Source: Acidimicrobiales bacterium (GTDB taxonomy: Bacteria > Actinomycetota > Acidimicrobiia > Acidimicrobiales > JAKAVM01). From it: a DNA stretch of 64,000 bases. Under the pieces are notes generated by a model. It was not told the origin of the DNA and did no database searches. It saw nothing but the letters and a program-made list of their open reading frames with translations. Positions 3,826 to 64,000 of the stretch are shown piece after piece. Each line of letters begins with the position of its first letter. The stretch's first letter is position 1. The stretch is from contig DAIDHF010000007.1 in the NCBI GenBank assembly GCA_027452005.1, positions 15,254 to 79,253 on the forward strand. Direction: 5' to 3'. A program made the translations under genes and the position numbers.

Positions 3826-3863
3826 TCACGATGTCCCTTTATCGCCTCACAGTTTAGTCCGGG

Positions 3864-4424
3864 TTAAATTGGGTCAATCCCAAGATCTTGGTAAGTAAGC
3901 AGTGGATAATAGGGAACGTCCAGGCGGTGAAATTCAGCTTTAGCCCGCGATCCTCGGTCCAACAAGGAGGTTGCGGCAACCACATTCGCTTGAGCTTGCT
4001 TTACTGCCCCATAGGCCTGAATGATAGAAGCACCCGAGGTGACCACGTCTTCAACCAATAACACGGCTGAGTTGGGTGTAACTTGAGATCCCTCTATCTT
4101 ATTTCCGGTCCCGTGAGATTTTTCCTGTTTGCGTACTGAAAACCAACCCAATTGACGTTCAATCGCAATCGCGTGAGAAATAGGATCTGCCCCCATAGTT
4201 AGGCCACCAACCAACTCAAAGGTAAGGCCAATGCTATCAAACATTGCCAAAATCGCATTCGCAGCTACCCTCAAATCTGATCCACTACCGAGCGCTTTCC
4301 TGCAGTCCACGTAATCGTGGCTAAATCCGCCAGAAGATAGCTGAAAGGGTTGATCTCGCCTCTGATATCCCTTTCCCAAGATTATAGCTATGACCTGGTC
4401 TTTTAGGTCTTGAACTTCTATCAT
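3864..4424 (-). CDS. pyrE: Orotate phosphoribosyltransferase
   Basis: 186 aa with PRPP-binding loop VLLVEDVVTSGAS, plus FQLSSGGFSHDYVDCR, VGGLTMGADP and VRKQEKSHGTGNKIEGS. It is collinear with the short actinobacterial PyrE as I remember it. Confidence 0.75.
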   Translation of the reverse strand: MIEVQDLKDQVIAIILGKGYQRRDQPFQLSSGGFSHDYVDCRKALGSGSDLRVAANAILAMFDSIGLTFELVGGLTMGADPISHAIAIERQLGWFSVRKQEKSHGTGNKIEGSQVTPNSAVLLVEDVVTSGASIIQAYGAVKQAQANVVAATSLLDRGSRAKAEFHRLDVPYYPLLTYQDLGIDPI

Positions 4425-4453
4425 AACTCTATCCTGATTGAGACTATCTAATT

Positions 4454-5470
4454 TTGCAAATCATCAAGTGCGGTCAAATGAAGCTCACGCCAATTGACAC
4501 CATTTGTCCGGCAAGGCGCCTAAACTTGAGCTTGATGCTAGCTGCAAACCTTGGCCCTGATCCAAACCCCCAATTCCAAGCCCGAACACATTTTCAGGCC
4601 ATCGTTTCAACCGCTCGACCAAAGCAGTGGATAAAGAATGTTCTTGTTTTTGCCGCTCCCGGAGCTGCCGGAGTTCTCTCGCATGGAACAAAACTTTCGC
4701 AAAGCGTTGCGACATTTTTGCTTTTTTGTGCCATGGCCTCGGGAGTATATTTTTTAAACGATTCTTTGGATGCGGCTGCCGACAGATTGCACCACACAAA
4801 ACGCTTTAGACCAGTCGCAAATGGAGAGCTTTCAGTTTCATTAGCAACGACAATTGGGGTAGTCCTAATTATCGTGTCCCTCCTAGCTGGAAGTATATTT
4901 GTAACACCAAGATTACTTTTCGTAATGGGTACTTACGTAGTTATCAATATTAGCTACTGCTTGTGGCTTAAGCATGAACCTGTAGTAGATATGGTCGCGG
5001 TAGCATCCGGATTTGCCCTTAGAGCTATCGCTGGTGGAATTGCGACCGGGGTTATCCTGTCTGACTGGTTTTTGATTGTTACCATGTCCGGCTCCTTATT
5101 TATGGTGGCAGGAAAACGACATGCCGAACATGTGGACCTTGGCGTAGAGCGCGCCAGCCATCGGTCTACACTTTCCCAGTACTCACTTGCCTATCTCAGA
5201 TACGTCAGGGCAGTTTCTTCAGGAGTTACCCTTACCGCTTATTGCCTGTGGGCTTTTGAGAAAGCCGCTCATCCCGGAGACCAGTCTATATTTTTTCGAC
5301 TTTCAATTGTACCGTTTTTGATTATTGTTTTGCGCTATGCACTTATTCTTGACACTGGCAAGGGAGGTGCTCCTGAGGAAATTGTCCTGGGCGACCGCCG
5401 CCTTCAAATTACCGGTCTTATTTGGTTGGCTGTATTTTTGCTTGGAGTATACTGGCCAGGACCGAGATGA
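4454..5470 (+). CDS. UbiA-family polyprenyl-phosphate 5-phosphoribosyltransferase (decaprenyl-phosphate phosphoribosyltransferase-like, Rv3806c type)
   Basis: Polytopic membrane protein with RPKQWIKNVLVF and the Asp-rich motif NDSLDAAADRLHHTKRFRPVANGEL. It sits directly upstream of dprE1/dprE2. The start is uncertain: TTG 4454 in the ORF track, with ATG 4478 or a later Met also possible. Confidence 0.8.
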   Translation: MQIIKCGQMKLTPIDTICPARRLNLSLMLAANLGPDPNPQFQARTHFQAIVSTARPKQWIKNVLVFAAPGAAGVLSHGTKLSQSVATFLLFCAMASGVYFLNDSLDAAADRLHHTKRFRPVANGELSVSLATTIGVVLIIVSLLAGSIFVTPRLLFVMGTYVVINISYCLWLKHEPVVDMVAVASGFALRAIAGGIATGVILSDWFLIVTMSGSLFMVAGKRHAEHVDLGVERASHRSTLSQYSLAYLRYVRAVSSGVTLTAYCLWAFEKAAHPGDQSIFFRLSIVPFLIIVLRYALILDTGKGGAPEEIVLGDRRLQITGLIWLAVFLLGVYWPGPR

Positions 5471-51422: not shown

Positions 51423-52565
51423 CTAGATAATCGACTCTAGGGTTAGCTGCTTGTCCATAATCGAGTCTGAAAGTGTGTCCACGGACAGACTAAGGTGTTG
51501 AAAGGCCCGCCTAGTGGCTACTCTTCCCCGAGGCGTGCGCTGTATGAGCCCCTGACGCACCAGGTATGGCTCGTAGGCGTCCTCAATTGTCTCGGGCTCC
51601 TCTCCAATTGATATGGCCAGAGTACTAACCCCAACCGGCCGTCCAGAAAAATTTACACAGAGGGTCTCGAGGATTGTCCGGTCCAGCTTGTCTAGACCAA
51701 GATGGTCAATTCCAAATAGTTCGAGCCCTTGTTTTGCCATCTCTAGGTTGACCACATTCTCGCCGTTCATCTGAGCAAAGTCCCGAACTCTTCTAAGTAG
51801 CCGGTTAGAAATTCTCGGGGTTCCCCGAGATCGCCTAGCAATTTCGCCAGCAGCCGGTTGATCAATCTCGATTCCGTAGATCGTCGAGGCCCTGACAACA
51901 ATCTGCTCTAGCTCTTGAGGGCTGTAATAGTCGAGTCTTGCAACTATCCCAAACCTGTCTCGAAGTGGTCCGGTAATCATACCAGTTCTGGTCGTGGCCC
52001 CAACTAGGGTAAACCTTGGAAGATCAAGACGAACCGACTTTGCAGCCGGACCTTTCCCAAGGACTATGTCAATCTTGTAGTCCTCTATTGCCGGATAGAG
52101 AACTTCTTCAACGACCTTTGAAAGTCGGTGAATTTCGTCTATAAAAATAACGTCACCATTATTTAGGTCACTTAGAATCGCTGCCAAGTCTCCGGGTCTA
52201 GCCAGAGACGGTCCAGATGTAACTGTTATCTCTGATCCCATCTCATGGGCAATTATTCCGGCCAGTGAAGTCTTGCCAAGCCCGGGTGGACCGGCAAACA
52301 GAATATGATCAGAAGGTTCTTCTCGCTTTCGAGCTGCTCCCAATACAATCTTGAGGTGTTCTTTCAGCTCACCCTGGCCGATAAAATCCTCTAGAAACTT
52401 CGGCCGAAGGCCAGGCTCAAAGGATTCGTCGGTTCTCAAGCGTCTAGGGTCTAGATAGGTTGACTCTGGTCGATCCGAATTGTCAAGCGAACTAGCAAGG
52501 TCGATCGACCCGATTGAACTGTTGCTAGAAGCTGTCTCGTCTACAATCAACTCTTTGCGGGCCAC
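51423..52565 (-). CDS. ruvB: Holliday junction branch migration ATPase RuvB
   Basis: Motifs LRPKFLEDFIGQ, Walker A GPPGLGKTS and Walker B IFIDEIHRL. It has a ~40-aa N-terminal extension relative to typical RuvB if Met1 is used. Confidence 0.95.
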   Translation of the reverse strand: MARKELIVDETASSNSSIGSIDLASSLDNSDRPESTYLDPRRLRTDESFEPGLRPKFLEDFIGQGELKEHLKIVLGAARKREEPSDHILFAGPPGLGKTSLAGIIAHEMGSEITVTSGPSLARPGDLAAILSDLNNGDVIFIDEIHRLSKVVEEVLYPAIEDYKIDIVLGKGPAAKSVRLDLPRFTLVGATTRTGMITGPLRDRFGIVARLDYYSPQELEQIVVRASTIYGIEIDQPAAGEIARRSRGTPRISNRLLRRVRDFAQMNGENVVNLEMAKQGLELFGIDHLGLDKLDRTILETLCVNFSGRPVGVSTLAISIGEEPETIEDAYEPYLVRQGLIQRTPRGRVATRRAFQHLSLSVDTLSDSIMDKQLTLESII

Positions 52566-52567
52566 GG

Positions 52568-53158
52568 CTATCCAGCCCTTCGTAGATGCCTGAGGGCCTC
52601 TTTGATAATCTCGGGAACTGGAGCATCTAAAGAAATCATTCCAAGCGCCGTCTTGATCTCATCGTGAGAGAATCCCAAGCCGGCGAGGGCTTCTCTCACC
52701 TGTACTGATGAACTTGACGAGCCTTCGAGGACCGAAATGTTTGAAATGCTTTCAGGAGTTAACTTTGATTCTAGTTCAATAACGAGGCGTTCTGCGGTCT
52801 TTTTGCCCACCCCAGGTACCGCAGTGAGCTGGGCTAAGTCTCTTCCTAGTACTGCCTGGGTAAGTTCGTCTACGTTCAGTACCGAGAGGATGCTAAGAGC
52901 TAGGGAGGGTCCAATTCCATGCGTTTGAATGAGAAGCTCAAAACAGTCTCGCTCATCTGGGCGTTCAAAGCCATACAGGGATATTGCATCCTCTTTTACG
53001 TGGGTGTGAATCCACAAATCATGTTCAGTTCCCAGTGGGCTTCCCGTGAGGGCTTCGGAGGATTTCATTACAACACGGTACCCGACCCCACCGACAAGAA
53101 CAGTTGCCAGACCGTTTTGGTCTAGGTGAATGAGTTTTCCGGAAAGATACCCAATCAT
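52568..53158 (-). CDS. ruvA: Holliday junction DNA helicase subunit RuvA
   Basis: N-terminal MIGYLSGKL and HhH motif VPGVGKKTAERL. Confidence 0.9.
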   Translation of the reverse strand: MIGYLSGKLIHLDQNGLATVLVGGVGYRVVMKSSEALTGSPLGTEHDLWIHTHVKEDAISLYGFERPDERDCFELLIQTHGIGPSLALSILSVLNVDELTQAVLGRDLAQLTAVPGVGKKTAERLVIELESKLTPESISNISVLEGSSSSSVQVREALAGLGFSHDEIKTALGMISLDAPVPEIIKEALRHLRRAG

Positions 53159-53727
53159 GACCTGTCTCCAAGGTCAACTTTGTCACGGGCAGTTTCTTGA
53201 GTCGACCACGACCTGGGTGTAGGAGGTTTGGCTAAGGCACTCTTTATAGCGCCCTGGAGTTTGGCTGAACCCAGATAACAGATTGCCAGTGCCAGGGCGT
53301 CGATTGCGTCGGGTTGTTTAGGGAGCTGGTCTACCCCGAGTAACTTCCCAACCATGGTGGCAACTTCAGATTTAGACGCCGCCCCGTTGCCAGCCACTGC
53401 CAGCTTCACCTCATTTGGGGTGAACTGGTGAACTTCAATCCCGTTAGCTGCCGCGGTAGCTAGAGCCAGCCCACTGGCCTGTCCGACCGACATTGCCGTC
53501 TTGGCATTCACCTGAAAGAAAACTCGCTCGACAACCACCACACTGGGGCGGAAGTCCTCAAATAGCGCCCTGAGGTCGGCAGACATTATGGCGAGTCGGC
53601 AGGGCAGATCAATTTCTAACGAGGTGGTCAAGATACCAGCAGCCGTGGCCCGATAACCGTGGTTTGTGCGGGTAACTATCCCGTATCCCAGACGAGACAG
53701 CCCCGGGTCGATACCCATTACGAACAT
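53155..53727 (-). CDS. ruvC: Crossover junction endodeoxyribonuclease RuvC
   Basis: Motifs GIDPGLSRLGYGIV, VVVERVFF and DAIDALALAI. Confidence 0.9.
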   Translation of the reverse strand: MFVMGIDPGLSRLGYGIVTRTNHGYRATAAGILTTSLEIDLPCRLAIMSADLRALFEDFRPSVVVVERVFFQVNAKTAMSVGQASGLALATAAANGIEVHQFTPNEVKLAVAGNGAASKSEVATMVGKLLGVDQLPKQPDAIDALALAICYLGSAKLQGAIKSALAKPPTPRSWSTQETARDKVDLGDRS

Positions 53728-53825
53728 TAGTTCGTTAGTTTAGCCCCTTGGAGCGCCCCTTTGGTGGATGGCTGAAAGTTCGGGCAATCTTGCATGAACC
53801 AGCACTAGACCAGGGAAGATTGGAT

Positions 53826-54578
53826 CTAGTCCTGGAGCACCTTCTCCATTACCTCGTCAGGGGTTTCAAAGTTAGAATACACGTTTTGGACATCGTCATG
53901 GTCTTCAAGGAGATCTATAACTTTGAGAACCTTTCTGAGATCCACCTCCGAGTCAACTGGCACGGTTGAAGTGGCAATCATGGTAAGTTCAAGCCCGGAT
54001 GTGGCAATCCCTTGGGCCTCGATGGCGGCTTTAACCTGAACGGCCTGATCGGGGGAGCTAATTATGTGCCAGTCGTCGTCTACCTTTACCACGTCGTCGG
54101 CACCTGCCTCGGCCCCGGCCAGTGTAATTTCATCTTCATCAATGATTCCAGGCGAGGTTATCAGGCCGACCCTTTTGAACTGCCAAGCCACAGCCCCCGG
54201 TTCAGCTAACGATCCCCCGGCCTTTGAGAAGATGCTCTTGATCTCGGCCCCGGTGCGATTGCGGTTATCGGTCAAACAGTCCACATAAACTGCAACCCCG
54301 CTTCCAGCATATCCCTCGTAAGTTACCGACTCATATCTAACCCCTTCGAGTTCTCCAGTACCTCGTTTGATCGCCCTCTCAATTGTGTCAAGAGGAACAC
54401 TAGCGTCTCGAGCCTTTTGGAACATGGTTCTAAGGGCCGAGTTTCCATCAAGGTCTCCCCCTCCCTCACGCGCAGCCACCTCGACTTGACGGATCAGCTT
54501 AGCAAAAAGCTTTCCGCGGGTTTTGTCGATCTGAGCTTTCTTATGTTTGGTGGTTGCCCATTTTGAATGGCCCGACAT
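53826..54578 (-). CDS. yebC: YebC/PmpR family DNA-binding transcriptional regulator
   Basis: 250 aa with the hallmark N-terminus MSGHSKWATTKHKKA. Confidence 0.9.
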   Translation of the reverse strand: MSGHSKWATTKHKKAQIDKTRGKLFAKLIRQVEVAAREGGGDLDGNSALRTMFQKARDASVPLDTIERAIKRGTGELEGVRYESVTYEGYAGSGVAVYVDCLTDNRNRTGAEIKSIFSKAGGSLAEPGAVAWQFKRVGLITSPGIIDEDEITLAGAEAGADDVVKVDDDWHIISSPDQAVQVKAAIEAQGIATSGLELTMIATSTVPVDSEVDLRKVLKVIDLLEDHDDVQNVYSNFETPDEVMEKVLQD

Positions 54579-54692
54579 CTATGGGTCCTCCTTGAAAATG
54601 TTATCTTGATCTGGCATACGAGTCGCTAATCTAAGTTTCTGTGCTGAATTGATACCGACGGCCTCCTTGGAGCGTACCGAGGACGTAAGCTG

Positions 54693-55346
54693 CTAGCTCT
54701 TTGAAAACGGCAACACGGTATTGTTAGCACTTTTTACGATACTCAAAAATAGTTGATGGATCCGAAGATCGCCAGTGAGCTCAGGGTGAAACGCACAACC
54801 CAGGGCGCTACCTTGACGCAAGACTACTGGTACCCCGGTGGCCGTGGTGGCCAAGACCTGGGTGTTGGGCCCTATGCCATCTACGAACGGTGCCCTGATA
54901 AACACTCCGGGGAACAGATCGGGACCTACTGTTTCAATTTCAAGCATTTCCTCAAAAGAGTCAACCTGGCGACCAAATCCGTTTCTCTTGACCACGGCAT
55001 CAATAACCCCAAACTTCAACTGGTCGTCTCGCCCGTCTAACACCTTAGAGGCCAGCAAGATAAGCCCAGCGCAGGTTCCAAGCACGGGCATGTCGTTCCT
55101 GAGCATCTTCGATAGGGGATCTTCAAGTCCACAAGAGACAATCAATCTCGATATAGTCGTGGACTCACCACCTGGAATTATCAGTCCGTCTATATCGATT
55201 AGGTCCTTGGGATCGGTTACTTCAACCGAGTTAACACCCAATTCCCTAAGGCGCTCACCGTGTCTGGCCCAATCCCCCTGGAGTGCCAGAATCCCAATTT
55301 TAGGAGCCACCTCGTTCAACCCAGCCCTACCAACCTCTACTTGCAA
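54693..55346 (-). CDS. pdxT: Pyridoxal 5'-phosphate synthase glutaminase subunit
   Basis: Motifs GILALQGD, nucleophile context LGTCAG and FHPELT. A GTG at 55310 is an alternative start that removes the 20-nt overlap with pdxS. Confidence 0.9.
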
Positions 55347-56244
55347 GCTTTACGTCTAGGCTATCTATAGACTCACCAGCCATCGCCTTGCCAAGTCCAC
55401 GCGACACCTTGGCAACAATATGGGGGTCTCGAAAGTGGGCCGTGGCTTCTACAATTGCAATTGCCCGAGACTCGGGATTGTCGGTCTTGAAAATTCCCGA
55501 CCCCACAAATACGGCCTCAGCACCCAGTTGCATTACAAGAGCTGCATCAGATGGAGTCGCAATACCCCCAGCACAAAACAGTGGAACAGGGAGCTTTCGC
55601 AGCTCGCGAACTTGGCGTACTAGGTCAACTGGAACCCGAAGATCTTTGGCCCATCCATATAACTCGGCCGAGCTTGCTTGAGAAATTGCCCGAATATCGC
55701 GACCAATTGCCCGTAGGTGCCGAACAGCCTCGACCACGTTACCCGTACCGGCCTCGCCTTTTGAACGGATCATTGCGGCGCCTTCGGATACTCTTCTAAG
55801 GGCCTCACCGAGGTTAGTGGCTCCGCACACAAATGGAACTGAAAACCCCCACTTGTCGATGTGATACTCCTCATCGGCTGGAGTCAACACTTCACTTTCG
55901 TCAATAAAATCAACCCGAAGGACCTCTAGGACCTGTGCCTCGGCAAAGTGCCCTATCCGAACTTTGGCCATGACCGGAATCGTGACCGTCTCTTGAATCT
56001 CCTCGATCAGGTGGGGGTCACTCATCCGGGCTACCCCCCCATCTCGGCGTATATCAGCTGGAACGCGCTCTAGGGCCATGACCGCCACAGCTCCCGCGTC
56101 CTCGGCAATTTTCGCCTGTTTAGCGTCCACTACGTCCATGATTACCCCTCCAACCAACATCTCGGCTAGTCCCTTTTTTACGTCAAAAGATCCGGTCTTA
56201 GCCTCAATATCTCGGTTGTCATCCAAGTCAATAGTAGCGCTCAC
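55327..56244 (-). CDS. pdxS: Pyridoxal 5'-phosphate synthase lyase subunit
   Basis: Motifs [29 protein letters not shown] and [12 protein letters not shown]. Confidence 0.95.
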
Positions 56245-56339: not shown

Positions 56340-59300
56340 TTAGAACTTTATTGCACCCACAATCAACAGGGCGGCAACACACACGGCCACCGCACCAGAA
56401 ATACGGTATGTCCAGGTTACCTTCCACTTATGACGCTTATGGGCCAAAAGGGTGGCGAAATCAACCAAATAACTTGGTAACGAAAGTACAACAAAGCCGA
56501 CTGCCATAATCTCAAATCCCCCGTGGATCGAGTACTTCAAGACAGCCCCGAGAGCAGTACCCACCGCTAACAGAACGAGAGTCTTTACAATTCCCTTTGG
56601 AATATAGCGAGACAGGGGCTTTACTTTAGGCAGCTTACTGGAGTAAATAGACATGACCCCCACGGCAAGTCCGATTGCAGTTCCAAGATAAAGCTCCCAC
56701 ACATTGCCCAAGTAGGCGTACGCCACAAACCCAATCAACCCTCCCCTGATCAAGTTTGAGATATGTTGTTGGCGTACACTCGGCTTTGGAAGCTCTCTTG
56801 GCATTACCGATTTAATTCTCAGGGGATAGTGGTGAACCGCCACGGTCTCCAATAACATTCTGGCTATCACGGCAAGCAAGACCGCGAGCGCGACAGTCGA
56901 CTCCTTCGAAGTGATCCCAAAAGATACTCCGGCGAGTGACGGAAGGGTTCCGATCATCTTTTCAATACCCCATGCGGCTACGAGTCCACCGATTATTAGA
57001 TCGCCAAACCTGTCAGTCCACTCACCTACATCTTTGGCCGGGAGCCTTCGCGCTGGCCTGGCTTGAGACATCACTACTGGGGCAGCAAAGAAAATTATGC
57101 ATAGACCAAGCAAGGTCCTCAAGGCGCTTGCTGAATCGATTCCCCCAGAACACAACACGCCAAGCCCGAAGACCAAACCTCCTAGAAGCCCCGATAAACC
57201 ATCAAATGCCGAAAGTACGACCAAGGCAGTAAAGATGCCAAATGAAGGTGGCACTGGCTGGCCCGAGGTCGATACCAGGGCTAGAGCTCCTAGTGCTACC
57301 CCGAAAAGTGGAAGCAAGAGTGAACCAGGCCCGGCCATTGCACGGGCATATACCCCATCATTTGATAACTTTCCAATCATTGGAGACCAAGGATTTAGCT
57401 TCTCGGGAATCTTCTTGCTCCACTCATCAAAGATGGCAATCCCCATCCAACTCCAGAACCGAGAGTGATCACCCCTTCCCTTTGATTCGTGGGTCACATT
57501 TGAATGTTCAATCTCAAATGACGCAAGTGAGGCCCCGGCATGACTGGATTCGCTTGTGTTGCCATGACCAATCTGGCCATGATGTCCACTTTGGGAGACC
57601 CCGGCCGTTACTAATTTCCCTCGGTAACCTTCAGCCCCACCTTGCCCCCCTGGTTCTCTTGTTCGCCCGGAACCTTGACCTTCCGAACTGCCATCACTAC
57701 CCGACGAAGATCCTCCACTACCGTCTTGTTCTTCGCCGTCATCGCCTCCACTCGATCCACCAGAACCAGCACCAATGCCGCCGGCACCCATAAGTCCCAT
57801 GATCGCAAAAGCCCCAACCAACGAGGAAACTACAGTTGAGGTATGCGAAGCCGGAATGTAAGTGGAATAGACCTGACCCCCTATTACCTTGGTTCCCGAT
57901 AAGGGTTGACTTACCTGGGGCTGCGGTGGGAAGAGGACGGTTGGGGAAGCTACCATTTTTGCCACAGATCCATCAGGGCTTACAGTGAGAGGCCACTGAT
58001 CAGATACCGAGGTTCCAGTCGGGCCTTGCCCGTCTACCAAGATGTGATGGGATCCATCCACCACGCCTCCTGGCACCGAGACTGATTGTGCAAAGCCTCC
58101 ACTCGAATCTACTGGAATTTCTGCCATAACAGTTGGGTTCGAGTGCAAGACGACCTTGGCCATAGAACCTGGCTTGAGTCCATTGCCCGATACGGCAAAA
58201 TGACTCCCACTAAAAACGCTCCCTATGGAAAAATTAAACTGGAGAGCAATCGAGGCTGATTTCTCCCCGGGAATCCTAACTATCTTAGAAGATGAACTTC
58301 CCGTACCAGAAGCCAAAGCATTCATCGTTACTTTGAGCCCTTGAGTTGCTAAGGTTTGAGCCTTGGAAAGCGTAGGCTGTGCGCTTGACTTTGAAGAGCT
58401 TTTTGTCTTGACGGTAACGGACTTGGACTGGACTCTAGACTTCGAGTTAGGTGAAGACTTCCCAGGTGACACCTTAGAGTTCTTCGTCAATGATAGATAT
58501 TTGGATGCCTGATGATTTGCGTTCGCAAGGCTAGAACCAGAAGCCTTGCTAACCGAAACCCGTTGGTTGGCACTCTGGGCAAGTAGAGTATCTTTAGCCG
58601 CCAGAGCCTCATATTGGCTTGCTGCCGCAGCTGAATTGTTGGCTGCTAGCTTTGTCTTCGAGATTAACACCTGAGCATTTTTCTCGCGCAAGGCCACTGC
58701 TAGTTTTGCCTTGTTGGTGGCAGACTGTGCCTTCTTGACTAATGTGCCAGCAACGCTCTTAGCACGGTTTGCACTGGAGATCGCCTTCTTCTCAGATTGC
58801 TCGACCTGTGTGAGTTTACTTTCATAAAATGCATACTTCTTGGAATTTGGAATGAGAGTTTGGAGAGCCTGCTTTAGCTTGTCCACTGTTAGTGCGTCTG
58901 CTCTAGCTACCTTGTCAAGATGTGTGGCATCCGTGAGCAATTTGCTTGCAGCAATCTGGGCCTTTTTCTGGGCTACTTGCGCATTGTGCAAGGAGTTTTT
59001 AGCCTGAGAGACTAGAAGGTTTACTTTTAGCGTTATTTCATTTAGTGCCTTTTGAGTACTGTATGATTTTTCACTGGCTTTCAAAGCACTTAACTGGGTC
59101 GAAGTTGCGCTCGATTGACTGTTCAAAATATTTAATACTCTTTTTGAACTGGTCGCCTGTAGGCGCAATTTGATCGCCGAACGAACATCCGGTGGCGATT
59201 TGGCAAGCTTAGATTTCGCTAAAGCCATATCCGCAGCCCTTTGCTCTTTAACTGCGACTATTTCTTCTTTTGCTGCAGCTTTTACATATTTTGTGGCAGA

Positions 59301-62300
59301 GATTGCCGACTTCACCGATTTAATCTGTTGTGCTAATGAACGATCTACTGTTTTGAGGACCGTTGCTCTAGCTTTTTCGTATTGAACCCGGTAAGTGACT
59401 ATCTTTTTATTCAAGGCCTTCTCGGCGTTGAGGACACGCCCTAGTTCCTTTTCAAGTTTCACAGGAATACGCTTGCTACGTGGAGTGAGTCGGTGAACCT
59501 TCAAATAGGCCTCAAGCTTTACGTTGAGTCTAGCAACTTGCCTAGACATTCTGGCCTTTTGAGTACCGTCTTTGGCAATCTTACCGGCAACTTTCATCAC
59601 GCTAGACTCGTGTGACTGAGCTGACTTCATAGCATTCCTGGCGAGCTTACGTTCTGAAGAAGCTTTGGTTGCAGCGCTCTTTGCGGACTGGTTGAGCGAT
59701 TTTGCAGATCCCAATGCTCTTTTAGCCAAAGCCTCATCACGAACTGCAAGCTGTGCTTGACGCTCAGAAGCCTTTGTAGGACGGAAAGTAGGCGCCTTGA
59801 TAGTGCGTATATTTCCTGACCGGGGATGTCTTACTGGTATATGGCTTCCAGAGACGTTTGAACCACTTCCTAGTCTTGTCGACGAACTAGCACCTGGCGT
59901 TTTTGTTGAACTTCCACCTTTGACCGCCGTACTCGATTGGCTTGGCCCATTTGCCGTACTTCCCCCAGCACTAGATTGCCCTGAATTTGGGGCCCCACTT
60001 CCTTGGGTCGATCCACCAGTAGGACCACCGGGGCTGATTCCTGTCCCCCCAGGGTTACCTCCACCTAATGGTGGGCCATTTACGGGCGGGTTAGTTGTAG
60101 ACGTAACCGGTGGCAAGGTTGTTGTGGTTGAGTTCGGGGGTAGCGTTGTAGATGTAGTAGTAGTCGGGGGTAGCGTTGTAGATGTAGTAGTAGTCGGGGG
60201 TAGCGTTGTAGATGTAGTGGTCGACGGTAGAGTTGTCGAGGTCGTTGTAGTCGTCGGCGGTAGAGTTGTGGAGGTAGTAGTAGTAGTTGGAGTACCGGTT
60301 GGAGACGACACTGTTACGTCGACAGAAGAACTCGACGATGCCGTAAACAACCCGGTTCCGTTATAGGTCGCAGTAATTGAATAAGTTCCACTTCCCGAAA
60401 AACTGGTGGTACAACTCACCAAACCGGAAGATCCTAATGGATCGCTTATACAACCGGAAATGGGTGATCCATTTGAATAGAAATTTACAGTTCCCGATGG
60501 TGTACCCGATCCTGACGATACGGTTGCCTCAAAGATTACTGATTGACCAGTGTCAAGTGTTGAAGCCGAGGTAGTTAGAGAAGTCGACGTCGGCTGAGGC
60601 GGAGGCGGTGGCGAAATCGCCGTAGCGGATGCCTCATTTGAATATCCTGAAGTACCCGATGGATCCACCGCTTTTACTTTAAAATACGTCGGTGATGAAT
60701 AGTTCGAGACGAAAGCCACATAGCTCGTCCCGGTAACCGGCGAAGCATTTATTGGTGTTGAAGACTCGCCTCCCGATGACGGACCCATATAGATGTTGTA
60801 GCCAGTTACAGTTGACGCCCCATTGGTCGACGGAGGAGACCAGGACAACGAAACACTCCCAACGCTACCTGATGCACTAAGGGAGCTAGGGGGAGCCGTT
60901 GTCGACGCAACAAACAGAGAACCTATCGTGCAGTTCTCATCATTGGACTTCGCTCCAGTTTGGTCGATTTCCGGACACAGACCAGAGGTCGCATTTGCTA
61001 TAGCACCAATTTCAGGAGCACCCGTATTGGGCTTGACACTTAGAGTAGGTCCCCCATTATTGGCAAGTGAACCAAGATCACCGGGCAATCCGGTATCTGT
61101 TATGTCACCAGTGGCGCCATTGACGCAAGCCGACCCGGACCTTGCAGCGTTGTAGCCGTAGTCGTGAAGGGTGCCATAAACCTTGCAAGCACCAGCATCG
61201 GCAAAAATCGTTGCCGATGGGGCGAGTGTCATTCCAGGATATGTATTGACGTCGTATCCACCGGCAAGGCTGGCGCTTGAGTTGCCGACAAAAGTATCGC
61301 CGATAAGAGTCAGAGTTCCGCTGGTACCCCCGTCGACAATCGCACCTCCATTGCCACCGGTTGTCTGGTTCGAGTAAAATGTGGAATAGGTAATTGATGC
61401 TGATCCTGCGATTGATAATGCGCCACCGGCTCCGCAGTTACAGCCGCCATTATCGAGATTGGATGAGAAGGTCGAACCGCTTATGGAGATAGTTGCTCCA
61501 GTAGAACTGTCAATTGCACTTCCCCATTGAGAGTTGTTGTCGTTATTGCTAGAAAATGTAGAGTTTGTCACCGTAGCAGTTCCCGTATTGTAAAGCCCAG
61601 CACTTGCCGATGAGACGCCATCGACGTCCTTGTTGTTTGTAACGGTGGAGTTCTCAATTTTCAATGTTCCGGCATTACCAATTCCTGCAGCCGGACCGCT
61701 CGAATATCCGTTCTCGATCGTCAGGCCATTTATGGTCACATTAGACCCTGAAGCTATGCTGATTACCTGGACTAGATTGCCCCCACTAATAACGGGAGTT
61801 GCTCCAGATTCGCCTTGAAGTGTCAGTGAACCTGCCAGGGAAACTGCAAGGGTTGCCGTTAGACTATAGGTACCGGTTGCGAAATTTACAGTGTCGCCCG
61901 TAGCTTTAGCAACTGCAATTGCATTCTGAACGGTGCATGGATCACTAGTGTCGCCACAGGTGTCGGTTCCGCCCGAGGTAGGCGCGACATAGTAGGTTGA
62001 AATTGGAACAACAAATACTGCACCCATAGAGCACGGCGAAGTACCCGATGAAGTCCCGGTTTGATCAGTAGAAGGGCACAGGGCATTGGGAAATCCACTT
62101 GGTGCAGACGTAGAATCGGGAATCGCCCCAACCCCAGCACTGGAGGTCAGTGGCTTAATCGTTTGTGTTGGTCCACCGTTGCTAGCCAGAGTTCCAAGGT
62201 TGACAAACGGGGAATTGCTTATGCTACCTGTAGCTGAAAGTCCGCAGGTTGAGTCATTTGCAATGTTATAGCCCTTGTCAGAGATCGTACCACCATTGCT

Positions 62301-63203
62301 CGCACAATCACTAGAGCCAGAACCAGTAATGATTGATCCGGCAATATATACAGTCCCAGATGCCTGCGCAAAGATGGCGTTTCCGCCATTGGTTGATGCG
62401 CCGGTCGTATTGTTAGCTAGGGTTGAAGACTCAATATATACAGTACCTTGGTAGTTATTGATTCCAGCGCCAAAGTGACCGGTTGCATTTGTTGTAATAG
62501 CGTTTGCCGTAATTGTCGAGTTTTCAATTTTCATGTTGCCATAAAAATTCTGGAACCCGCCTCCGACCCAAACGGCATTATTATTTTCAATCGTAGAATC
62601 TTCAACGGTCATAGAAGAAGCACTGCCGTTATTGAATAGGGCACCACCCGAGTTAGTAACAGAGTTGCCCGTAAAGGTTGAGTTCATTACGGTTAGATGA
62701 CCCGAATTACTAATTCCTCCACCGTTTATTGCGACGCCGTTCTCTATCGTAACCCCTTCTACGGTGGCAGTCGTCGTCGAGGCGATGGTCATGACTTGCA
62801 CGGTGCTATTTCCGTTCAATACTGGCGATGCACCCGTGTCAGCTTGAATGGTGATACTGCCCGTCGGTGACACGGCAAGGGTTGACCCTAAGGAGTAAGT
62901 ACCGGACTCCAAGATGACCGTGCCTCCACCTGCAGTATTTGCATCCGAGATAGCCGTTGAGATTGAGCAGGTGTCGGTGCTCGAAGTACATCCTCCACTT
63001 CCAGTAGGTGATGCATACCAAGGTCCAGTTGCCGAGGCTAAACCAATAGTGACAGCAAGGGTGATTGTAGAAGTTAGAGAGACCGCCAGGAGGACCGCCC
63101 ATATAGACCTCCACCTAAATGTCGCCCTAGCTTGAAGATCACGCTGTTGGGCTACTTTGCGCCAAAAAGAAGAAAGAAGCCTGACCGATACAGTCTTACC
63201 CAA
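56340..63203 (-). CDS. Giant (2287-aa) multidomain surface/membrane protein of unknown function
   Basis: TTG start 8 nt after GGAGGA, with a signal-like N-terminus ending in LASA. Two right-handed beta-helix modules each end in an LG(T/S)LA(S/N)NGGPT motif. These are followed by FN3-like and Ig-like domains, a TTTTSTTLPP tandem repeat, a Gly/Pro/Ser linker and a ~460-aa K/A/S-rich helical region. After that come an Ig-like domain, a TM helix, an acidic Gly/Ser and His-rich linker, and ~10-11 predicted TM helices. Confidence 0.8.
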   Translation of the reverse strand: MGKTVSVRLLSSFWRKVAQQRDLQARATFRWRSIWAVLLAVSLTSTITLAVTIGLASATGPWYASPTGSGGCTSSTDTCSISTAISDANTAGGGTVILESGTYSLGSTLAVSPTGSITIQADTGASPVLNGNSTVQVMTIASTTTATVEGVTIENGVAINGGGISNSGHLTVMNSTFTGNSVTNSGGALFNNGSASSMTVEDSTIENNNAVWVGGGFQNFYGNMKIENSTITANAITTNATGHFGAGINNYQGTVYIESSTLANNTTGASTNGGNAIFAQASGTVYIAGSIITGSGSSDCASNGGTISDKGYNIANDSTCGLSATGSISNSPFVNLGTLASNGGPTQTIKPLTSSAGVGAIPDSTSAPSGFPNALCPSTDQTGTSSGTSPCSMGAVFVVPISTYYVAPTSGGTDTCGDTSDPCTVQNAIAVAKATGDTVNFATGTYSLTATLAVSLAGSLTLQGESGATPVISGGNLVQVISIASGSNVTINGLTIENGYSSGPAAGIGNAGTLKIENSTVTNNKDVDGVSSASAGLYNTGTATVTNSTFSSNNDNNSQWGSAIDSSTGATISISGSTFSSNLDNGGCNCGAGGALSIAGSASITYSTFYSNQTTGGNGGAIVDGGTSGTLTLIGDTFVGNSSASLAGGYDVNTYPGMTLAPSATIFADAGACKVYGTLHDYGYNAARSGSACVNGATGDITDTGLPGDLGSLANNGGPTLSVKPNTGAPEIGAIANATSGLCPEIDQTGAKSNDENCTIGSLFVASTTAPPSSLSASGSVGSVSLSWSPPSTNGASTVTGYNIYMGPSSGGESSTPINASPVTGTSYVAFVSNYSSPTYFKVKAVDPSGTSGYSNEASATAISPPPPPQPTSTSLTTSASTLDTGQSVIFEATVSSGSGTPSGTVNFYSNGSPISGCISDPLGSSGLVSCTTSFSGSGTYSITATYNGTGLFTASSSSSVDVTVSSPTGTPTTTTTSTTLPPTTTTTSTTLPSTTTSTTLPPTTTTSTTLPPTTTTSTTLPPNSTTTTLPPVTSTTNPPVNGPPLGGGNPGGTGISPGGPTGGSTQGSGAPNSGQSSAGGSTANGPSQSSTAVKGGSSTKTPGASSSTRLGSGSNVSGSHIPVRHPRSGNIRTIKAPTFRPTKASERQAQLAVRDEALAKRALGSAKSLNQSAKSAATKASSERKLARNAMKSAQSHESSVMKVAGKIAKDGTQKARMSRQVARLNVKLEAYLKVHRLTPRSKRIPVKLEKELGRVLNAEKALNKKIVTYRVQYEKARATVLKTVDRSLAQQIKSVKSAISATKYVKAAAKEEIVAVKEQRAADMALAKSKLAKSPPDVRSAIKLRLQATSSKRVLNILNSQSSATSTQLSALKASEKSYSTQKALNEITLKVNLLVSQAKNSLHNAQVAQKKAQIAASKLLTDATHLDKVARADALTVDKLKQALQTLIPNSKKYAFYESKLTQVEQSEKKAISSANRAKSVAGTLVKKAQSATNKAKLAVALREKNAQVLISKTKLAANNSAAAASQYEALAAKDTLLAQSANQRVSVSKASGSSLANANHQASKYLSLTKNSKVSPGKSSPNSKSRVQSKSVTVKTKSSSKSSAQPTLSKAQTLATQGLKVTMNALASGTGSSSSKIVRIPGEKSASIALQFNFSIGSVFSGSHFAVSGNGLKPGSMAKVVLHSNPTVMAEIPVDSSGGFAQSVSVPGGVVDGSHHILVDGQGPTGTSVSDQWPLTVSPDGSVAKMVASPTVLFPPQPQVSQPLSGTKVIGGQVYSTYIPASHTSTVVSSLVGAFAIMGLMGAGGIGAGSGGSSGGDDGEEQDGSGGSSSGSDGSSEGQGSGRTREPGGQGGAEGYRGKLVTAGVSQSGHHGQIGHGNTSESSHAGASLASFEIEHSNVTHESKGRGDHSRFWSWMGIAIFDEWSKKIPEKLNPWSPMIGKLSNDGVYARAMAGPGSLLLPLFGVALGALALVSTSGQPVPPSFGIFTALVVLSAFDGLSGLLGGLVFGLGVLCSGGIDSASALRTLLGLCIIFFAAPVVMSQARPARRLPAKDVGEWTDRFGDLIIGGLVAAWGIEKMIGTLPSLAGVSFGITSKESTVALAVLLAVIARMLLETVAVHHYPLRIKSVMPRELPKPSVRQQHISNLIRGGLIGFVAYAYLGNVWELYLGTAIGLAVGVMSIYSSKLPKVKPLSRYIPKGIVKTLVLLAVGTALGAVLKYSIHGGFEIMAVGFVVLSLPSYLVDFATLLAHKRHKWKVTWTYRISGAVAVCVAALLIVGAIKF
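60103..60300 (-). repeat. 30-nt coding tandem repeat (6-7 units) encoding TTTTSTTLPP
   Basis: Units 60136-60165 and 60166-60195 are identical. Flanking units are progressively degenerate, with some of 27 nt. Confidence 0.85.
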
Positions 63204-63343: not shown

Positions 63344-64000
63344 CTAACAGGTACTTGATAGCTGGTAGGTTGTAGTTGGACTCTGAAGTTGAGCCGCCTG
63401 ACAGGTGGGCTCGGGTTGGCTTAGGGGAAGTAGCTCGACCCAGGTTTTTCCAGGCTCGAGGGCGATCTGATGGCCCTTTGAGTCGATAAATTTAGTGACA
63501 GAAAATTCGCTGGGCTTAGACCAGGTAGCCTTGACTATCTCTCCCCCACTTAATACGTAGGCCTGACCGTTCCCGACCGTGTTGGCATCCGGAACGGGAT
63601 TTCCAGCTGGATCAATATAACCAGTATTAGAGTACGGGACGATCTCAACTATTACGTTCGTTGCTGTTATTGGAACTCCCGCTGCGTCGACTGATGGGGT
63701 CCCCTGCGTACGGTCCCACACCTTAGCAATAGGGTCCCATGCCCATTCAACTGTTGTTACCCCGCTCAAATCTAGGTTGATCTTTGCAATTCCAAGTTCA
63801 CCTGGGGCACTAAAGGGCGACCCGGAAGTAAGGAACTTGAAAAGTTGTGGCGGGGCCTTGGCTGGCGCAGTGTTGTTCTTCCTAAGAGTAATGGTTGACG
63901 TGTACAGATTGTCGGGGATTAGCCTGGAGTTATCCCGGTAGTATGCACCAGGTTCACCCGTTGAGGCCCCCACATCGACAACCCCGGTTTTCATGACGTC
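63344..64000 (-). CDS. Secreted protein, C-terminal part only (DUF3048-like); the 5' end lies beyond the window
   Basis: The frame is open to the window edge. The pattern YYRDNSRLIPDNLYTS ... VEWAWD ... NVIVEIVPY ... GNGQAYVLSGGEIVKATWSK ... LEPGKTWVELLP matches my memory of the C-terminal half of the YerB/DUF3048 family. Confidence 0.55.
   Translation of the reverse strand, partial: DVMKTGVVDVGASTGEPGAYYRDNSRLIPDNLYTSTITLRKNNTAPAKAPPQLFKFLTSGSPFSAPGELGIAKINLDLSGVTTVEWAWDPIAKVWDRTQGTPSVDAAGVPITATNVIVEIVPYSNTGYIDPAGNPVPDANTVGNGQAYVLSGGEIVKATWSKPSEFSVTKFIDSKGHQIALEPGKTWVELLPLSQPEPTCQAAQLQSPTTTYQLSSTC

What the first reader, a model, noticed from the sequence alone, without database searches (positions are those of the whole stretch)
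56340..57840. Unassigned ~10-11-helix membrane domain preceded by acidic Gly/Ser and His-rich linkers
Seen: after the TM helix VVSSLVGAFAIMGLMGAGGIG come GSGGSSGGDDGEEQDGSGGSSSGSDGSSEGQGSG and a His-rich stretch (SGHHGQIGHGNTSESSHAGASLASFEIEHSNVTHESKGRGDH). These are followed by about ten to eleven hydrophobic helices with short loops. I could not match any transporter, GT-C, sortase/exosortase or rhomboid signature by eye. Inferred: this is a distinct membrane module of unknown function fused to the giant ectodomain. The His-rich linker suggests metal binding.
Basis: partly seen in the sequence, partly recalled or inferred. Interest (0 to 1): 0.55.

Follow-up and report, generated by a model that had tools for sequence, protein, structure and literature searches.

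The report
Undescribed actinobacterial multi-pass surface-protein membrane module
The last ~380 residues of this 2,287-residue surface protein are a real, strongly conserved multi-pass membrane domain that matches no curated family or solved structure and always ends adhesin-like surface proteins of Actinomycetota, so it looks like an undescribed way of holding such proteins in the membrane.

Summary
The ORF at 56340-63203 (-) ends with TM0, a Gly/Ser/acidic linker, a His-containing stretch and a multi-pass domain.

The domain is neither chance nor an orphan. An exhaustive HMMER search found 644 cluster representatives (328 at E<1e-30). In the 150 listed, the domain lies at or near the C-terminus of 282-5,995-aa proteins.

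No known family matches. Pfam-A, NCBIfam and PDB sequence searches gave nothing. A confident AlphaFold2 model (pLDDT 84.9, pTM 0.82) has no Foldseek match in PDB or BFVD (TM <=0.21).

Every named source is Actinomycetota. Neighbouring genes are not conserved. Ectodomains are adhesin-type (fn3, Big_3_5, FG-GAP, beta-helix).

About a third of the listed members also share a membrane-proximal Ig-like domain; a Y-x-P-x-x-H motif often precedes TM0.

The inferred topology is N-in/C-out: nine full helices plus a kinked hairpin. Twelve Asp/Glu/Arg positions are 94-100% conserved, eleven of them assigned to the cytoplasmic side.

His-richness is specific to this protein, so metal binding is unsupported.

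Best reading: a sortase-independent membrane base that is itself functionally constrained. Its activity is unknown.

The parts
56340..63203 (-). Whole gene: 2,287-codon ORF plus stop. An adhesin-like surface protein ending in the conserved membrane module.
   Evidence: ORF list and translation. A contig with an identical yebC carries a 2,277-aa call of the corresponding gene.
63030..63107 (-). N-terminal basic region plus hydrophobic segment (aa ~33-58, ...IWAVLLAVSLTSTITLAVTIGLASA/TG). Inferred Sec-type signal peptide or signal anchor that puts the ectodomain outside.
   Evidence: Hydropathy peak at aa 42-49 and the sequence itself. 64 of 92 homologues have an N-terminal hydrophobic segment. 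Cleavage is inferred only.
60894..63026 (-). Two G/S/T/N-rich regions that look like beta-helix repeats. Includes a choice-of-anchor Q match at aa 335-396.
   Evidence: NCBIfam NF041518 choice_anch_Q, E=1.3e-11, 44.5 bits against a cut-off of 25. Composition. The beta-helix assignment is by eye.
60024..60251 (-). Thr/Pro-rich spacer (TTTTSTTLPP repeats).
   Evidence: Composition T 41%, P 20%. Tandem 30-nt repeat at 60134-60284.
58509..59831 (-). 441-aa Ala/Lys/Ser/Leu-rich, strongly basic segment (net charge +57). Probably an alpha-helical stalk.
   Evidence: Composition. The helical or coiled-coil character is inferred by eye and was not tested.
57948..58271 (-). Membrane-proximal Ig-like domain (aa ~1645-1752), conserved in about a third of the 150 listed homologues. 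Invariant HS-P...G...P...G-H...G.
   Evidence: Homology extends upstream to aa ~1650 in about 50-60 of 150 representatives. Alignment A4. The profile matches the repeats of a large adhesion protein, PDB 6xi3, at E=2.8e-9. Weak Big_6 and Big_13 hits.
57843..57860 (-). Juxtamembrane motif YIPASH (family form roughly Y-[DEV]-P-x-x-H-P), lying before TM0.
   Evidence: Upstream alignments: a loose Y-x-P pattern is present in 36 of 92. An LPXTG-like motif is present in 1 of 92 and absent here.
57771..57833 (-). TM0: a Gly/Ala-rich single helix (aa 1791-1811) that returns the chain to the cytoplasm.
   Evidence: Hydropathy. Conserved as V..FALL...G in homologues.
57507..57770 (-). Low-complexity Gly/Ser/acidic linker with a His-containing tail (aa 1812-1899). 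Inferred cytoplasmic and disordered.
   Evidence: Composition G 29.5%, S 20.5%. pLDDT <50 for fragment residues 1-45. Family linker median 46 aa, range 2-227, G/A/S-rich.
57354..57506 (-). Conserved membrane-adjacent N-terminal segment of the domain (aa 1900-1950), inferred cytoplasmic. Motifs SLAS-x-K-V-K-H, GD[RK]S-x-TW-x-W, SPL-x-AR and DG-x-Y-L-RA. Short helices.
   Evidence: Alignment A1. pLDDT 87-92 and helices H49-87. D1912 is 98% and D1949 99% conserved. K+R-rich.
56343..57353 (-). Multi-pass membrane domain (aa 1951-2287). Nine full TM helices plus a kinked hairpin, broken at D2001. C-terminus inferred outside.
   Evidence: AlphaFold2 with alignment: pLDDT 84.9, pTM 0.82. Alternating K/R-rich and K/R-poor loops across 31 sequences. 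644 homologues. Near-invariant D2001, R2049, R2052, R2053, R2065, D2068, R2115, E2119, R2129.

Best explanation
The finding is the C-terminal part of a conserved, previously undescribed membrane module that ends adhesin-like cell-surface proteins of Actinomycetota.

Proposed sequence of events:
1. An N-terminal Sec-type signal exports the variable ectodomain (inferred).
2. In about a third of listed members, the ectodomain ends in a conserved membrane-proximal Ig-like domain and a Pro-rich stalk; a Y-x-P-x-x-H motif often precedes TM0 (shown by alignment).
3. TM0 returns the chain to the cytoplasm (inferred).
4. A disordered Gly/Ser-rich linker of variable length follows (shown).
5. The ~380-residue conserved domain then inserts N-in/C-out. 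It has nine full helices plus a kinked hairpin (inferred from the positive-inside pattern and the AlphaFold2 secondary structure).

The domain folds as one compact bundle that resembles no solved structure (shown).

I propose it is a sortase-independent, non-covalent membrane base that holds long surface fibres on the cell. It takes the place that LPXTG or other C-terminal sorting signals occupy in other surface proteins.

It is not an inert anchor. Twelve Asp/Glu/Arg positions are 94-100% conserved. By the inferred topology, eleven lie in the cytoplasmic loops or cytoplasmic helix ends. The twelfth (D2001) is at the hairpin break, at a depth that could not be fixed. So the base most likely binds or acts on something at the inner leaflet. 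Candidates are an anionic lipid head group, a phosphate-bearing lipid carrier, or a cytoplasmic partner. Which activity it has is not known.
For: - Family and position. 644 representatives at E<=1e-3 and 328 at <=1e-30. In the 150 listed, the match lies at or near the C-terminus of proteins of 282-5,995 aa. It ends within 3 residues of the C-terminus in most of the 81 full-coverage cases.
- No known family. Pfam-A and NCBIfam find nothing for the query or for 10 homologues. No family is hit by more than 1 of 31 members even at E<=1. PDB sequence and profile searches give 0 hits at E<=10.
- Structure. pLDDT 84.9 and pTM 0.82 with a 31-sequence alignment. Best Foldseek result is E=0.15 with TM <=0.21 in PDB, and E=0.13 with TM <=0.20 in BFVD.
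- Cargo is adhesin-type. Of 39 full-length members, fn3 occurs in 14 and Big_3_5 in 9. FG-GAP, MBG, Big_13, TIG, Beta_helix, RCC1 and TSP_3 also occur. No sensor or catalytic domain is hit. BNR, fn3 and Big_3_5 appear in a separate set.
- The shared Ig-like domain matches adhesin repeats (6xi3, E=2.8e-9).
- No LPXTG-like motif (1 of 92).
- All apparently stand-alone short members that I examined are frameshifted or truncated genes whose upstream ORF carries signal peptide, Ig domain and PT spacer. The shortest members returned that look intact are 614-646 aa.
- Not inert. D1912, D1949, R1954, D2001, R2049, R2052, R2053, R2065, D2068, R2115, E2119 and R2129 are 94-100% conserved in 176 sequences.
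- Topology. Loops alternate between K+R-rich (means 2.0-6.1) and K+R-poor (<=0.2).
- The gene acts alone. No neighbouring gene family is shared by more than 3 of 21 loci.
- Taxonomy. Every named source is Actinomycetota.
- Context. A survey of fibrillar adhesins found no known anchor in nearly half of candidates and suggested undiscovered anchors exist (PMC8286594).
Against: - No experiment or homology links the domain to anchoring; the role is inferred from position and cargo.
- A single helix (TM0) would already tether the protein. A ~380-residue domain with near-invariant charged residues is more than anchoring needs, which favours an additional or different activity.
- Topology and the hairpin are inferred.
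- Only the top 150 of 644 hits were inspected. Taxonomy is known for only about a dozen.
- No AlphaFold DB or HHpred-type profile-profile search against Pfam was possible, so a very remote relationship could have been missed.
Confidence: 0.5

Rival explanations
1. Receptor or transducer. The multi-pass domain is a channel, transporter or signalling unit, and the ectodomain acts as its sensor, for example for attachment or mechanical load. The layout resembles polycystin-1 or adhesion GPCRs, which pair a giant adhesive ectodomain with a multi-pass domain.
For: - The multi-pass domain is the constant, most conserved part, while ectodomains vary.
- There are near-invariant charges inside membrane helices: D2001 at the hairpin break and R2115/E2119 on one helix face.
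- The conserved cytoplasmic face could contact a partner.
Against: - Ectodomains are stalk or adhesin types, not known bacterial ligand-sensor domains.
- There is no cytoplasmic output domain and no conserved neighbouring signalling gene.
- No internal repeat of the kind typical of many transporters.
- No fold match to any channel or transporter.
Confidence: 0.2
2. Sorting enzyme fused to its own substrate. The Y-x-P-x-x-H motif plus TM0 would be a sorting signal. The fused multi-pass domain would be its processing enzyme, cleaving the ectodomain and/or transferring it to the wall or a lipid. This would be analogous to exosortase, archaeosortase or rhombosortase systems, in which signal and enzyme are separate proteins.
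For: - A juxtamembrane motif lies before TM0 in many members.
- The layout of motif, helix and then a multi-pass domain mirrors sorting signal plus sorting enzyme.
- No partner gene is encoded nearby.
- Conserved acidic residues lie within membrane helices.
Against: - No invariant Cys, His or Ser, as used by sortases, exosortases and rhomboids.
- No Pfam hit to any intramembrane protease or sortase family.
- No fold match to presenilin-like, Rce1-like or rhomboid structures in PDB.
- The conserved charges face the cytoplasm by inference, while the motif is outside.
- A loose Y-x-P pattern is found in only 36 of 92 members.
Confidence: 0.1
3. Highly diverged member of a known membrane enzyme or transporter superfamily (for example GT-C, acyltransferase-3, MFS or a flippase). 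Its activity would serve the envelope in general, and the ectodomain would merely be fused to it.
For: - About 10 helices with conserved Asp/Arg is a common theme in lipid-linked-substrate enzymes.
- One locus has GT87 and GT2 genes upstream.
- The top, non-significant Foldseek rows are SLC19A1/MFS and HHAT.
Against: - All sequence tests are negative.
- Foldseek TM-scores are <=0.21 despite a confident model.
- Extracytoplasmic loops are 3-10 residues and carry no conserved acidic motif.
- No two-fold internal repeat.
- The Frag1 (13.9 bits against a cut-off of 30.3) and CrcB (18.5 against 132) hits occur in only 1 of 31 members.
Confidence: 0.1
4. Artefact. The ectodomain and membrane domain would be joined by misassembly or a read-through, or the hydrophobic stretch would be non-coding.
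For: The window is uncultured-type sequence. Some database homologues are visibly frameshifted.
Against: - The same fused architecture recurs in hundreds of independent clusters.
- One is a complete isolate genome, Frankineae bacterium MT45 (SDI76882.1), where the called gene translates exactly to the protein.
- An independent contig carries the corresponding gene as a single 2,277-aa call.
- Frameshifts split the gene; they do not create the fusion.
Confidence: 0.01

Closest known systems
Sortase-dependent LPXTG cell-wall anchor (Gram_pos_anchor, PF00746)
   Same: - C-terminal position on Sec-exported, adhesin-like, multi-domain surface proteins of monoderm bacteria.
- Preceded by Pro/Thr-rich wall-spanning spacers.
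- Highly variable cargo.
   Different: - No LPXTG-like motif (1 of 92, and none here).
- The helix is followed not by a short basic tail but by a G/S-rich linker and a ~380-residue conserved multi-pass domain.
- No evidence of cleavage or covalent wall attachment.
- No sequence relationship.
Sorting signals with a separate multi-pass sorting enzyme (PEP-CTERM/exosortase, PGF-CTERM/archaeosortase, GlyGly-CTERM/rhombosortase)
   Same: - A short conserved motif directly before a C-terminal helix on diverse surface proteins.
- A multi-pass membrane protein is involved.
   Different: - Here the multi-pass domain is fused to the same polypeptide.
- It lacks the catalytic Cys/Arg/His or Ser/His residues.
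- No Pfam or fold similarity.
- Processing is not shown.
Polycystin-1 and adhesion-GPCR type architecture (eukaryotic)
   Same: A giant adhesive ectodomain rich in Ig-like or FN3-type repeats, joined to a multi-pass membrane domain in one polypeptide.
   Different: - No homology and no fold match (GPCR rows in Foldseek have TM <=0.21).
- No GAIN/GPS autoproteolysis site.
- Bacterial, with an extra helix and a disordered cytoplasmic linker between ectodomain and multi-pass domain.
Fibrillar adhesins (Monzon, Lafita and Bateman 2021, PMC8286594); repeats of the large adhesion protein in PDB 6xi3
   Same: - The ectodomain is built from stalk-type domains (Ig-like, FN3, beta-helix).
- The membrane-proximal Ig-like domain matches 6xi3 repeats at E=2.8e-9.
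   Different: - Known fibrillar adhesins use LPXTG, SLH, LysM, autotransporter or LapG-type retention.
- None is described with a conserved multi-pass C-terminal domain.
Acyltransferase-3 fused to SGNH (OafA/OafB type)
   Same: A multi-pass domain joined through an extra helix and a linker to an extracytoplasmic domain in one protein.
   Different: - The order is reversed there: membrane domain first.
- The AT3 Pfam model does not match.
- The extracytoplasmic part here is adhesin-like, not an SGNH esterase.
- The resemblance is recalled from memory. It was tested only through the Pfam and Foldseek negatives.

Membership tests
LPXTG sortase anchor (PF00746) | LPXTG-type motif within about 50 residues of the C-terminus | tested here: not met
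   No such motif before TM0 in the query. An LP.[TSA][GAS] pattern occurs in 1 of 92 homologues. No Pfam hit.
LPXTG sortase anchor (PF00746) | A single hydrophobic helix followed by a short basic tail that ends the protein | tested here: not met
   TM0 is followed by an acidic Gly/Ser linker (net charge -8) and about 390 more residues.
Exosortase/archaeosortase and rhomboid/rhombosortase | Profile match and catalytic residues conserved (Cys/Arg/His, or Ser/His) | tested here: not met
   No Pfam or NCBIfam hit for any of 31 members. The invariant columns contain no Cys, His or Ser. No Foldseek match.
GT-C glycosyltransferases | Acidic motif in the first extracytoplasmic loop, large extracytoplasmic loops or domain, and the GT-C fold | tested here: not met
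   The inferred outside loops are 3-10 residues with mean D+E <=0.5. No Pfam hit. Foldseek against PDB gives TM <=0.21.
MFS and other repeat-built secondary transporters | Internal structural repeat, and a family profile or fold match | tested here: not met
   hhalign of the two halves gives probability 0.6%, E=0.093. Best Foldseek rows are SLC19A1 at E=0.15 with TM 0.16-0.21. No Pfam hit.
Frag1/DRAM/Sfk1 (PF10277) | Score at or above the gathering threshold of 30.3 bits | tested here: not met
   13.5-13.9 bits, E=0.04-0.05. Matched by 1 of 31 family members.
CrcB fluoride channel (NF010810) | Score at or above the cut-off of 132 bits over the 118-position model | tested here: not met
   18.2-18.5 bits over 29 residues. 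Matched by 1 of 31 members.
Fibrillar-adhesin-like surface proteins (functional class, PMC8286594) | Exported protein built from stalk-type repeat domains | tested here: met
   N-terminal hydrophobic signal. choice-of-anchor Q match. Ig-like domain matching adhesin repeats. fn3, Big_3_5 and FG-GAP in homologues.
Fibrillar-adhesin-like surface proteins (functional class, PMC8286594) | Demonstrated adhesion and surface location | not testable with these tools
   Needs experiments.
The new family itself (C-terminal multi-pass module) | Motifs GD[RK]S, DG-x-Y-x-RA, F-D-x-x-x-G, RP-x-RR, DR-x-x-D, R-x-x-x-E and YP-x-R, in order, at the C-terminus after a helix and a linker | tested here: met
   The query carries all 16 invariant positions of alignment A1. 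It scores 524.5 bits against the family profile.

The most novel reading that the evidence does not exclude
The module is an active transmembrane device with a new fold, not a tether. Its cytoplasm-facing cluster of near-invariant Asp/Glu/Arg residues and the membrane-embedded D2001, R2115 and E2119 would carry out chemistry or conduction that is coupled to the extracellular fibre. Two versions are not excluded:
- a bacterial adhesion or mechano-receptor;
- a sorting enzyme fused to its own sorting signal (Y-x-P-x-x-H plus TM0).

Either would be a new principle of surface-protein handling in Actinomycetota.
Probability: 0.25. Interest if true: 0.85.

Novelty: new variant of a known kind. Interest (0 to 1): 0.6.

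Why it matters
Many long adhesin-like proteins of Gram-positive bacteria have no recognisable anchor. A published survey found none in nearly half of candidates (PMC8286594).

This module would account for one such group across Actinomycetota. Named sources include abundant freshwater and soil lineages: Nanopelagicales, Acidimicrobiales, Microbacteriaceae and Frankineae.

It also gives a sequence signature for annotating hundreds of 'hypothetical' proteins.

The domain has a confidently predicted fold with no counterpart among solved structures, and a dozen near-invariant charged residues. That makes it a well-defined target for structure determination and mutagenesis. A cultured carrier exists (Frankineae bacterium MT45).

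If the domain proves to be catalytic or signalling, it would be a new mechanism linking surface fibres to the cell interior.

Tried and rejected
- Word-indexed homologue search with the single sequence found nothing. With alignment A1 it returned only one member, and I suspect the low-complexity linker words swamped the candidates. With the trimmed core it returned 15. The exhaustive HMMER search was what revealed the family.
- The single-sequence AlphaFold2 model was useless (pLDDT 43). The alignment-based model replaced it.
- Pfam, NCBIfam, PDB sequence, PDB profile, Foldseek PDB and Foldseek BFVD searches were all negative. The Frag1 and CrcB hits were rejected as noise: far below cut-off and seen in 1 of 31 members.
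- Internal duplication was rejected (hhalign probability 0.6%).
- Stand-alone forms of the membrane domain were rejected. P0004, P0021 and P0166 are frameshift fragments. The P0055 and P0083 reading frames run to the contig edge.
- A conserved operon partner was rejected. The apparent shared clusters were shadow ORFs overlapping the gene. After masking, at most 3 of 21 loci share a neighbour, a MarR regulator. One candidate pair of small neighbours is unrelated.
- The first genome scan with the 31-sequence alignment failed for lack of a conserved 7-10-column stretch. It was rerun with 6 sequences.
- Metal binding by the His stretch was rejected as a family property.
- A CDP-alcohol-phosphotransferase-like motif (DG-x-x-AR) was considered by eye for DG-x-Y-x-RA. 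I rejected it because the spacing differs, the downstream Asp pair is absent and there is no fold match.
- Three literature searches found no description of this domain.
Full report
**1. What is in the sequence**

Window 56340-63203 on the minus strand is one ORF of 2,287 codons plus stop.
- TM0 (VVSSLVGAFAIMGLMGAGGIG) is aa 1791-1811, nt 57771-57833.
- It is followed by a Gly/Ser/acidic low-complexity stretch and a His-containing stretch.
- Then comes a hydrophobic region running to the stop codon.

The rest of the protein reads as an exported, adhesin-like ectodomain.
- A basic-plus-hydrophobic N-terminus.
- Two G/S/T/N-rich regions with a choice-of-anchor Q match (NF041518, E=1.3e-11).
- An FN3/Ig-looking Ser/Thr-rich part, then a Thr/Pro tandem-repeat spacer.
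- A 441-aa Ala/Lys-rich basic segment with net charge +57.
- An Ig-like domain just before TM0.

The neighbours are housekeeping genes. Downstream are pdxS, pdxT, yebC, ruvC, ruvA and ruvB. Upstream is a DUF3048 protein.

**2. It is a large family, always at the C-terminus**

The word-indexed search found nothing with the single sequence.

The exhaustive HMMER search of 1.84 billion cluster representatives found 644 proteins at E<=1e-3, 557 at <=1e-10 and 328 at <=1e-30. The best is E=7.8e-94 at 42% identity.

In the 150 listed, the match covers query residues ~20-425 and sits at or near the end of proteins of 282-5,995 aa. Of 81 with full coverage, most end within 3 residues of the domain's end.

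Sources that carry a name are all Actinomycetota:
- Frankineae bacterium MT45, a cultured isolate with a complete genome (SDI76882.1).
- Glaciihabitans and Microbacteriaceae.
- Acidimicrobiales, Ilumatobacter and Microthrixaceae.
- Nanopelagicales and Actinomycetales.

All are annotated 'hypothetical' or named only after an ectodomain domain.

**3. No known family or fold**

- Pfam-A and NCBIfam give nothing for the C-terminal 517 aa beyond noise: Frag1 at 13.5 bits against a cut-off of 30.3, and CrcB at 18.2 against 132.
- Ten full-length homologues have Pfam hits only in their ectodomains.
- When all 31 members of alignment A1 are scanned at E<=1, no family is hit by more than one member.
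- PDB sequence and profile searches return 0 hits at E<=10.
- AlphaFold2 with A1 gives mean pLDDT 84.9 and pTM 0.82, with 269 residues at pLDDT >=90. The single-sequence run gave only 43.
- Foldseek of that model finds nothing at E<=0.001. The best is E=0.15 with TM <=0.21 in PDB, and E=0.13 with TM <=0.20 in BFVD.
- The two halves of the domain are unrelated (hhalign probability 0.6%).

**4. Anatomy of the conserved unit**

Alignment A1 shows ordered motifs:
- SLAS-x-KVKH
- GD[RK]S-x-TW-x-WPG
- SPL-x-AR
- DG-x-YLRA
- a PP loop
- F-D-x-x-x-G
- RP-L-RR-x-P
- DR-x-AD
- R-x-x-L-E-T
- YP-x-RL
- G-x-x-W-x-L
- LP-x-G
- GR[DE]G...W

The sixteen invariant positions map to G1911, D1912, P1941, D1949, R1954, P1986, D2001, G2005, R2049, R2053, R2065, D2068, R2115, E2119, R2129 and W2169.

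In a wider set of 176 sequences, twelve charged positions remain 94-100% conserved: the eleven charged residues above plus R2052.

The model's helices and the loop charge statistics across the family alternate cleanly.
- K+R-rich segments: the N-terminal segment and loops 188-197, 265-281, 326-342 and 393-402 (fragment numbering).
- K+R-poor segments (<=0.2 per sequence): loops 118-126, 158-163, 225-234, 305-307, 365-367 and the C-terminus.

This fits an N-in/C-out topology with nine full helices. The 31-residue helix broken only at D2001 (fragment 127-139/141-157) must then start and end on the outside, so it is a kinked or re-entrant hairpin.

On that topology, eleven of the twelve conserved charges sit in the cytoplasmic loops or the cytoplasmic ends of helices. 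D2001 sits at the hairpin break, at a depth I could not fix. This step is inference, because model coordinates could not be inspected.

**5.

With the full protein as query, about 50-60 of the 150 representatives also align over aa ~1650-1860. That region holds three features.
- An Ig-like domain with invariant HS-P...G...P...G-H...G. Its profile matches the repeats of a large adhesion protein (PDB 6xi3, E=2.8e-9). It weakly matches Big_6 (9 of 20) and Big_13 (4 of 20).
- A Pro-rich stalk.
- A Y-[DEV]-P-x-x-H-P motif before TM0, which is YIPASH here. A loose Y-x-P pattern is found in 36 of 92. LPXTG-like motifs are essentially absent, at 1 of 92.

The TM0-to-GD linker is G/A/S-rich. Its length is variable: median 46 aa, range 2-227.

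**6. The His-rich stretch**

His makes up 2.7% of the 45 residues before the GD motif across 92 homologues, against 1.1% overall. The median is one His, and the query is the extreme with six.

One His (KVKH) is semi-conserved. Closer relatives show some extra His.

The stretch is inferred to be cytoplasmic. Metal binding is therefore not supported as a property of the family. It remains possible for this lineage.

**7. No stand-alone forms and no partner genes**

Short database members that looked like free membrane proteins are artefacts.
- In L007, L011 and L012, an upstream ORF in another frame carries the signal peptide, Ig-like domain and PT spacer. In L007 and L011 it also carries the Y-x-P motif.
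- In L008 and L009, the reading frame runs to the contig edge.

The shortest members returned that look intact are 614-646 aa. By the architecture seen in the split genes, these would comprise signal peptide, one Ig-like domain, a spacer, TM0, the linker and the multi-pass domain. I did not inspect them individually.

Each of 21 loci holds one copy. After masking the gene itself, no neighbouring gene family is shared by more than 3 of 21 loci, and that one is a MarR regulator.

**8. Cargo**

In 39 full-length members the ectodomains carry the following:
- fn3 (14 members) and Big_3_5 (9).
- FG-GAP, MBG, Big_13 and ALK_LTK_GRD.
- HYDIN-type Ig, NIDO, RCC1, TSP_3 and YDG.
- NHL, TIG, Beta_helix and PKD.

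BNR, fn3 and Big_3_5 appear in a further set. These are stalk, adhesin and propeller domains. No classical sensor or hydrolase catalytic domain was hit.

**9. Interpretation**

The position, the variable adhesin-type cargo, the absence of LPXTG and the restriction to one monoderm phylum all fit a C-terminal surface-retention module. It is an alternative to sortase anchoring.

Near-invariance of twelve charged residues over sequences that are otherwise 30-40% identical is far more constraint than an anchor needs. The domain is thus likely to bind or act on something at the inner leaflet or in the cytoplasm.

My confidences are:
- 0.5 for a membrane base with an unknown additional activity.
- 0.2 for a receptor or transducer.
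- 0.1 for a sorting enzyme fused to its own substrate.
- 0.1 for a diverged member of a known superfamily.
- About 0.01 for an artefact.

**10. Novelty and score**

As a protein family and fold, it is absent from Pfam-A (2025 copy), NCBIfam 20.0 and the PDB. Three full-text literature searches found no description.

A survey of fibrillar adhesins noted that nearly half lack any known anchor and that new anchors probably await discovery (PMC8286594).

As a kind of thing, a C-terminal retention module of surface proteins, it has functional precedents. I therefore rate it a new variant of a known kind, with a 0.25 chance that it is something mechanistically new.

Interest is 0.6. The finding is solid, widespread, unannotated and experimentally tractable, but its function is still inferred.

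Noticed in passing
window 60134-60284: Tandem 30-nt repeat (5 copies, 81% matches) that encodes the TTTTSTTLPP Thr/Pro spacer of the ectodomain. Such spacers are typical O-glycosylated wall-spanning linkers in Actinomycetota (from general knowledge).
   Followed up: partly
window 58509-59831: A 441-aa Ala/Lys/Ser/Leu-rich segment with net charge +57 inside the ectodomain. It has no homologue among the 150 representatives (coverage 0). It may be an alpha-helical stalk or a wall-polymer-binding region.
   Followed up: no
window 62016-62201: choice-of-anchor Q domain (NF041518, 44.5 bits). By its name, this domain occurs on proteins with differing C-terminal anchors, which fits the anchor reading. 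Pfam found nothing in the whole 2,287-aa protein apart from noise.
   Followed up: partly
window 51423-56244: Directly downstream on the same strand lies the housekeeping run pdxS, pdxT, yebC, ruvC, ruvA, ruvB. I recall this order as common in Actinomycetota; that was not tested. The giant gene sits in core chromosome, not in an island.
   Followed up: partly
window 63344-63994: The upstream gene on the same strand encodes a DUF3048 C-terminal domain protein. It is not found next to homologues elsewhere.
   Followed up: partly
L007 2413-4391; L011 5720-9272; L012 7421-9320: In several metagenome assemblies, the family's genes are split by frameshifts near or in the stalk and TM0 region. I suspect long-read indel errors, but this is unverified. 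Databases therefore hold false 'stand-alone' ~410-440-aa membrane proteins and opposite-strand shadow gene calls.
   Followed up: yes
L010 (ENA ERZ27233573, contig k141_1792795, 17,350 bp): A public metagenome contig carries an identical YebC and a 2,277-aa call of the giant gene in the same gene order. The same or a near-identical organism has therefore been assembled independently.
   Followed up: partly
L006 4333-8758; L011 10653-12407; L016 ~3365-5150: MarR-family regulators and MFS transporters lie near the gene in 3-4 loci. This is probably lineage synteny rather than a functional link.
   Followed up: partly
L013 1266-6504: One ~640-aa member lies downstream of GT87 and GT2 glycosyltransferase genes and unannotated membrane-protein-sized genes. 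This is an envelope-biogenesis context, seen in this locus only.
   Followed up: no
window 56936-57793 (+ strand): ORFs of 98-183 aa on the opposite strand inside the membrane-domain coding region. Opposite-strand ORFs over the target gene also cluster across homologous loci, as expected for shadow ORFs of a conserved gene. The window ORFs were not examined individually.
   Followed up: partly
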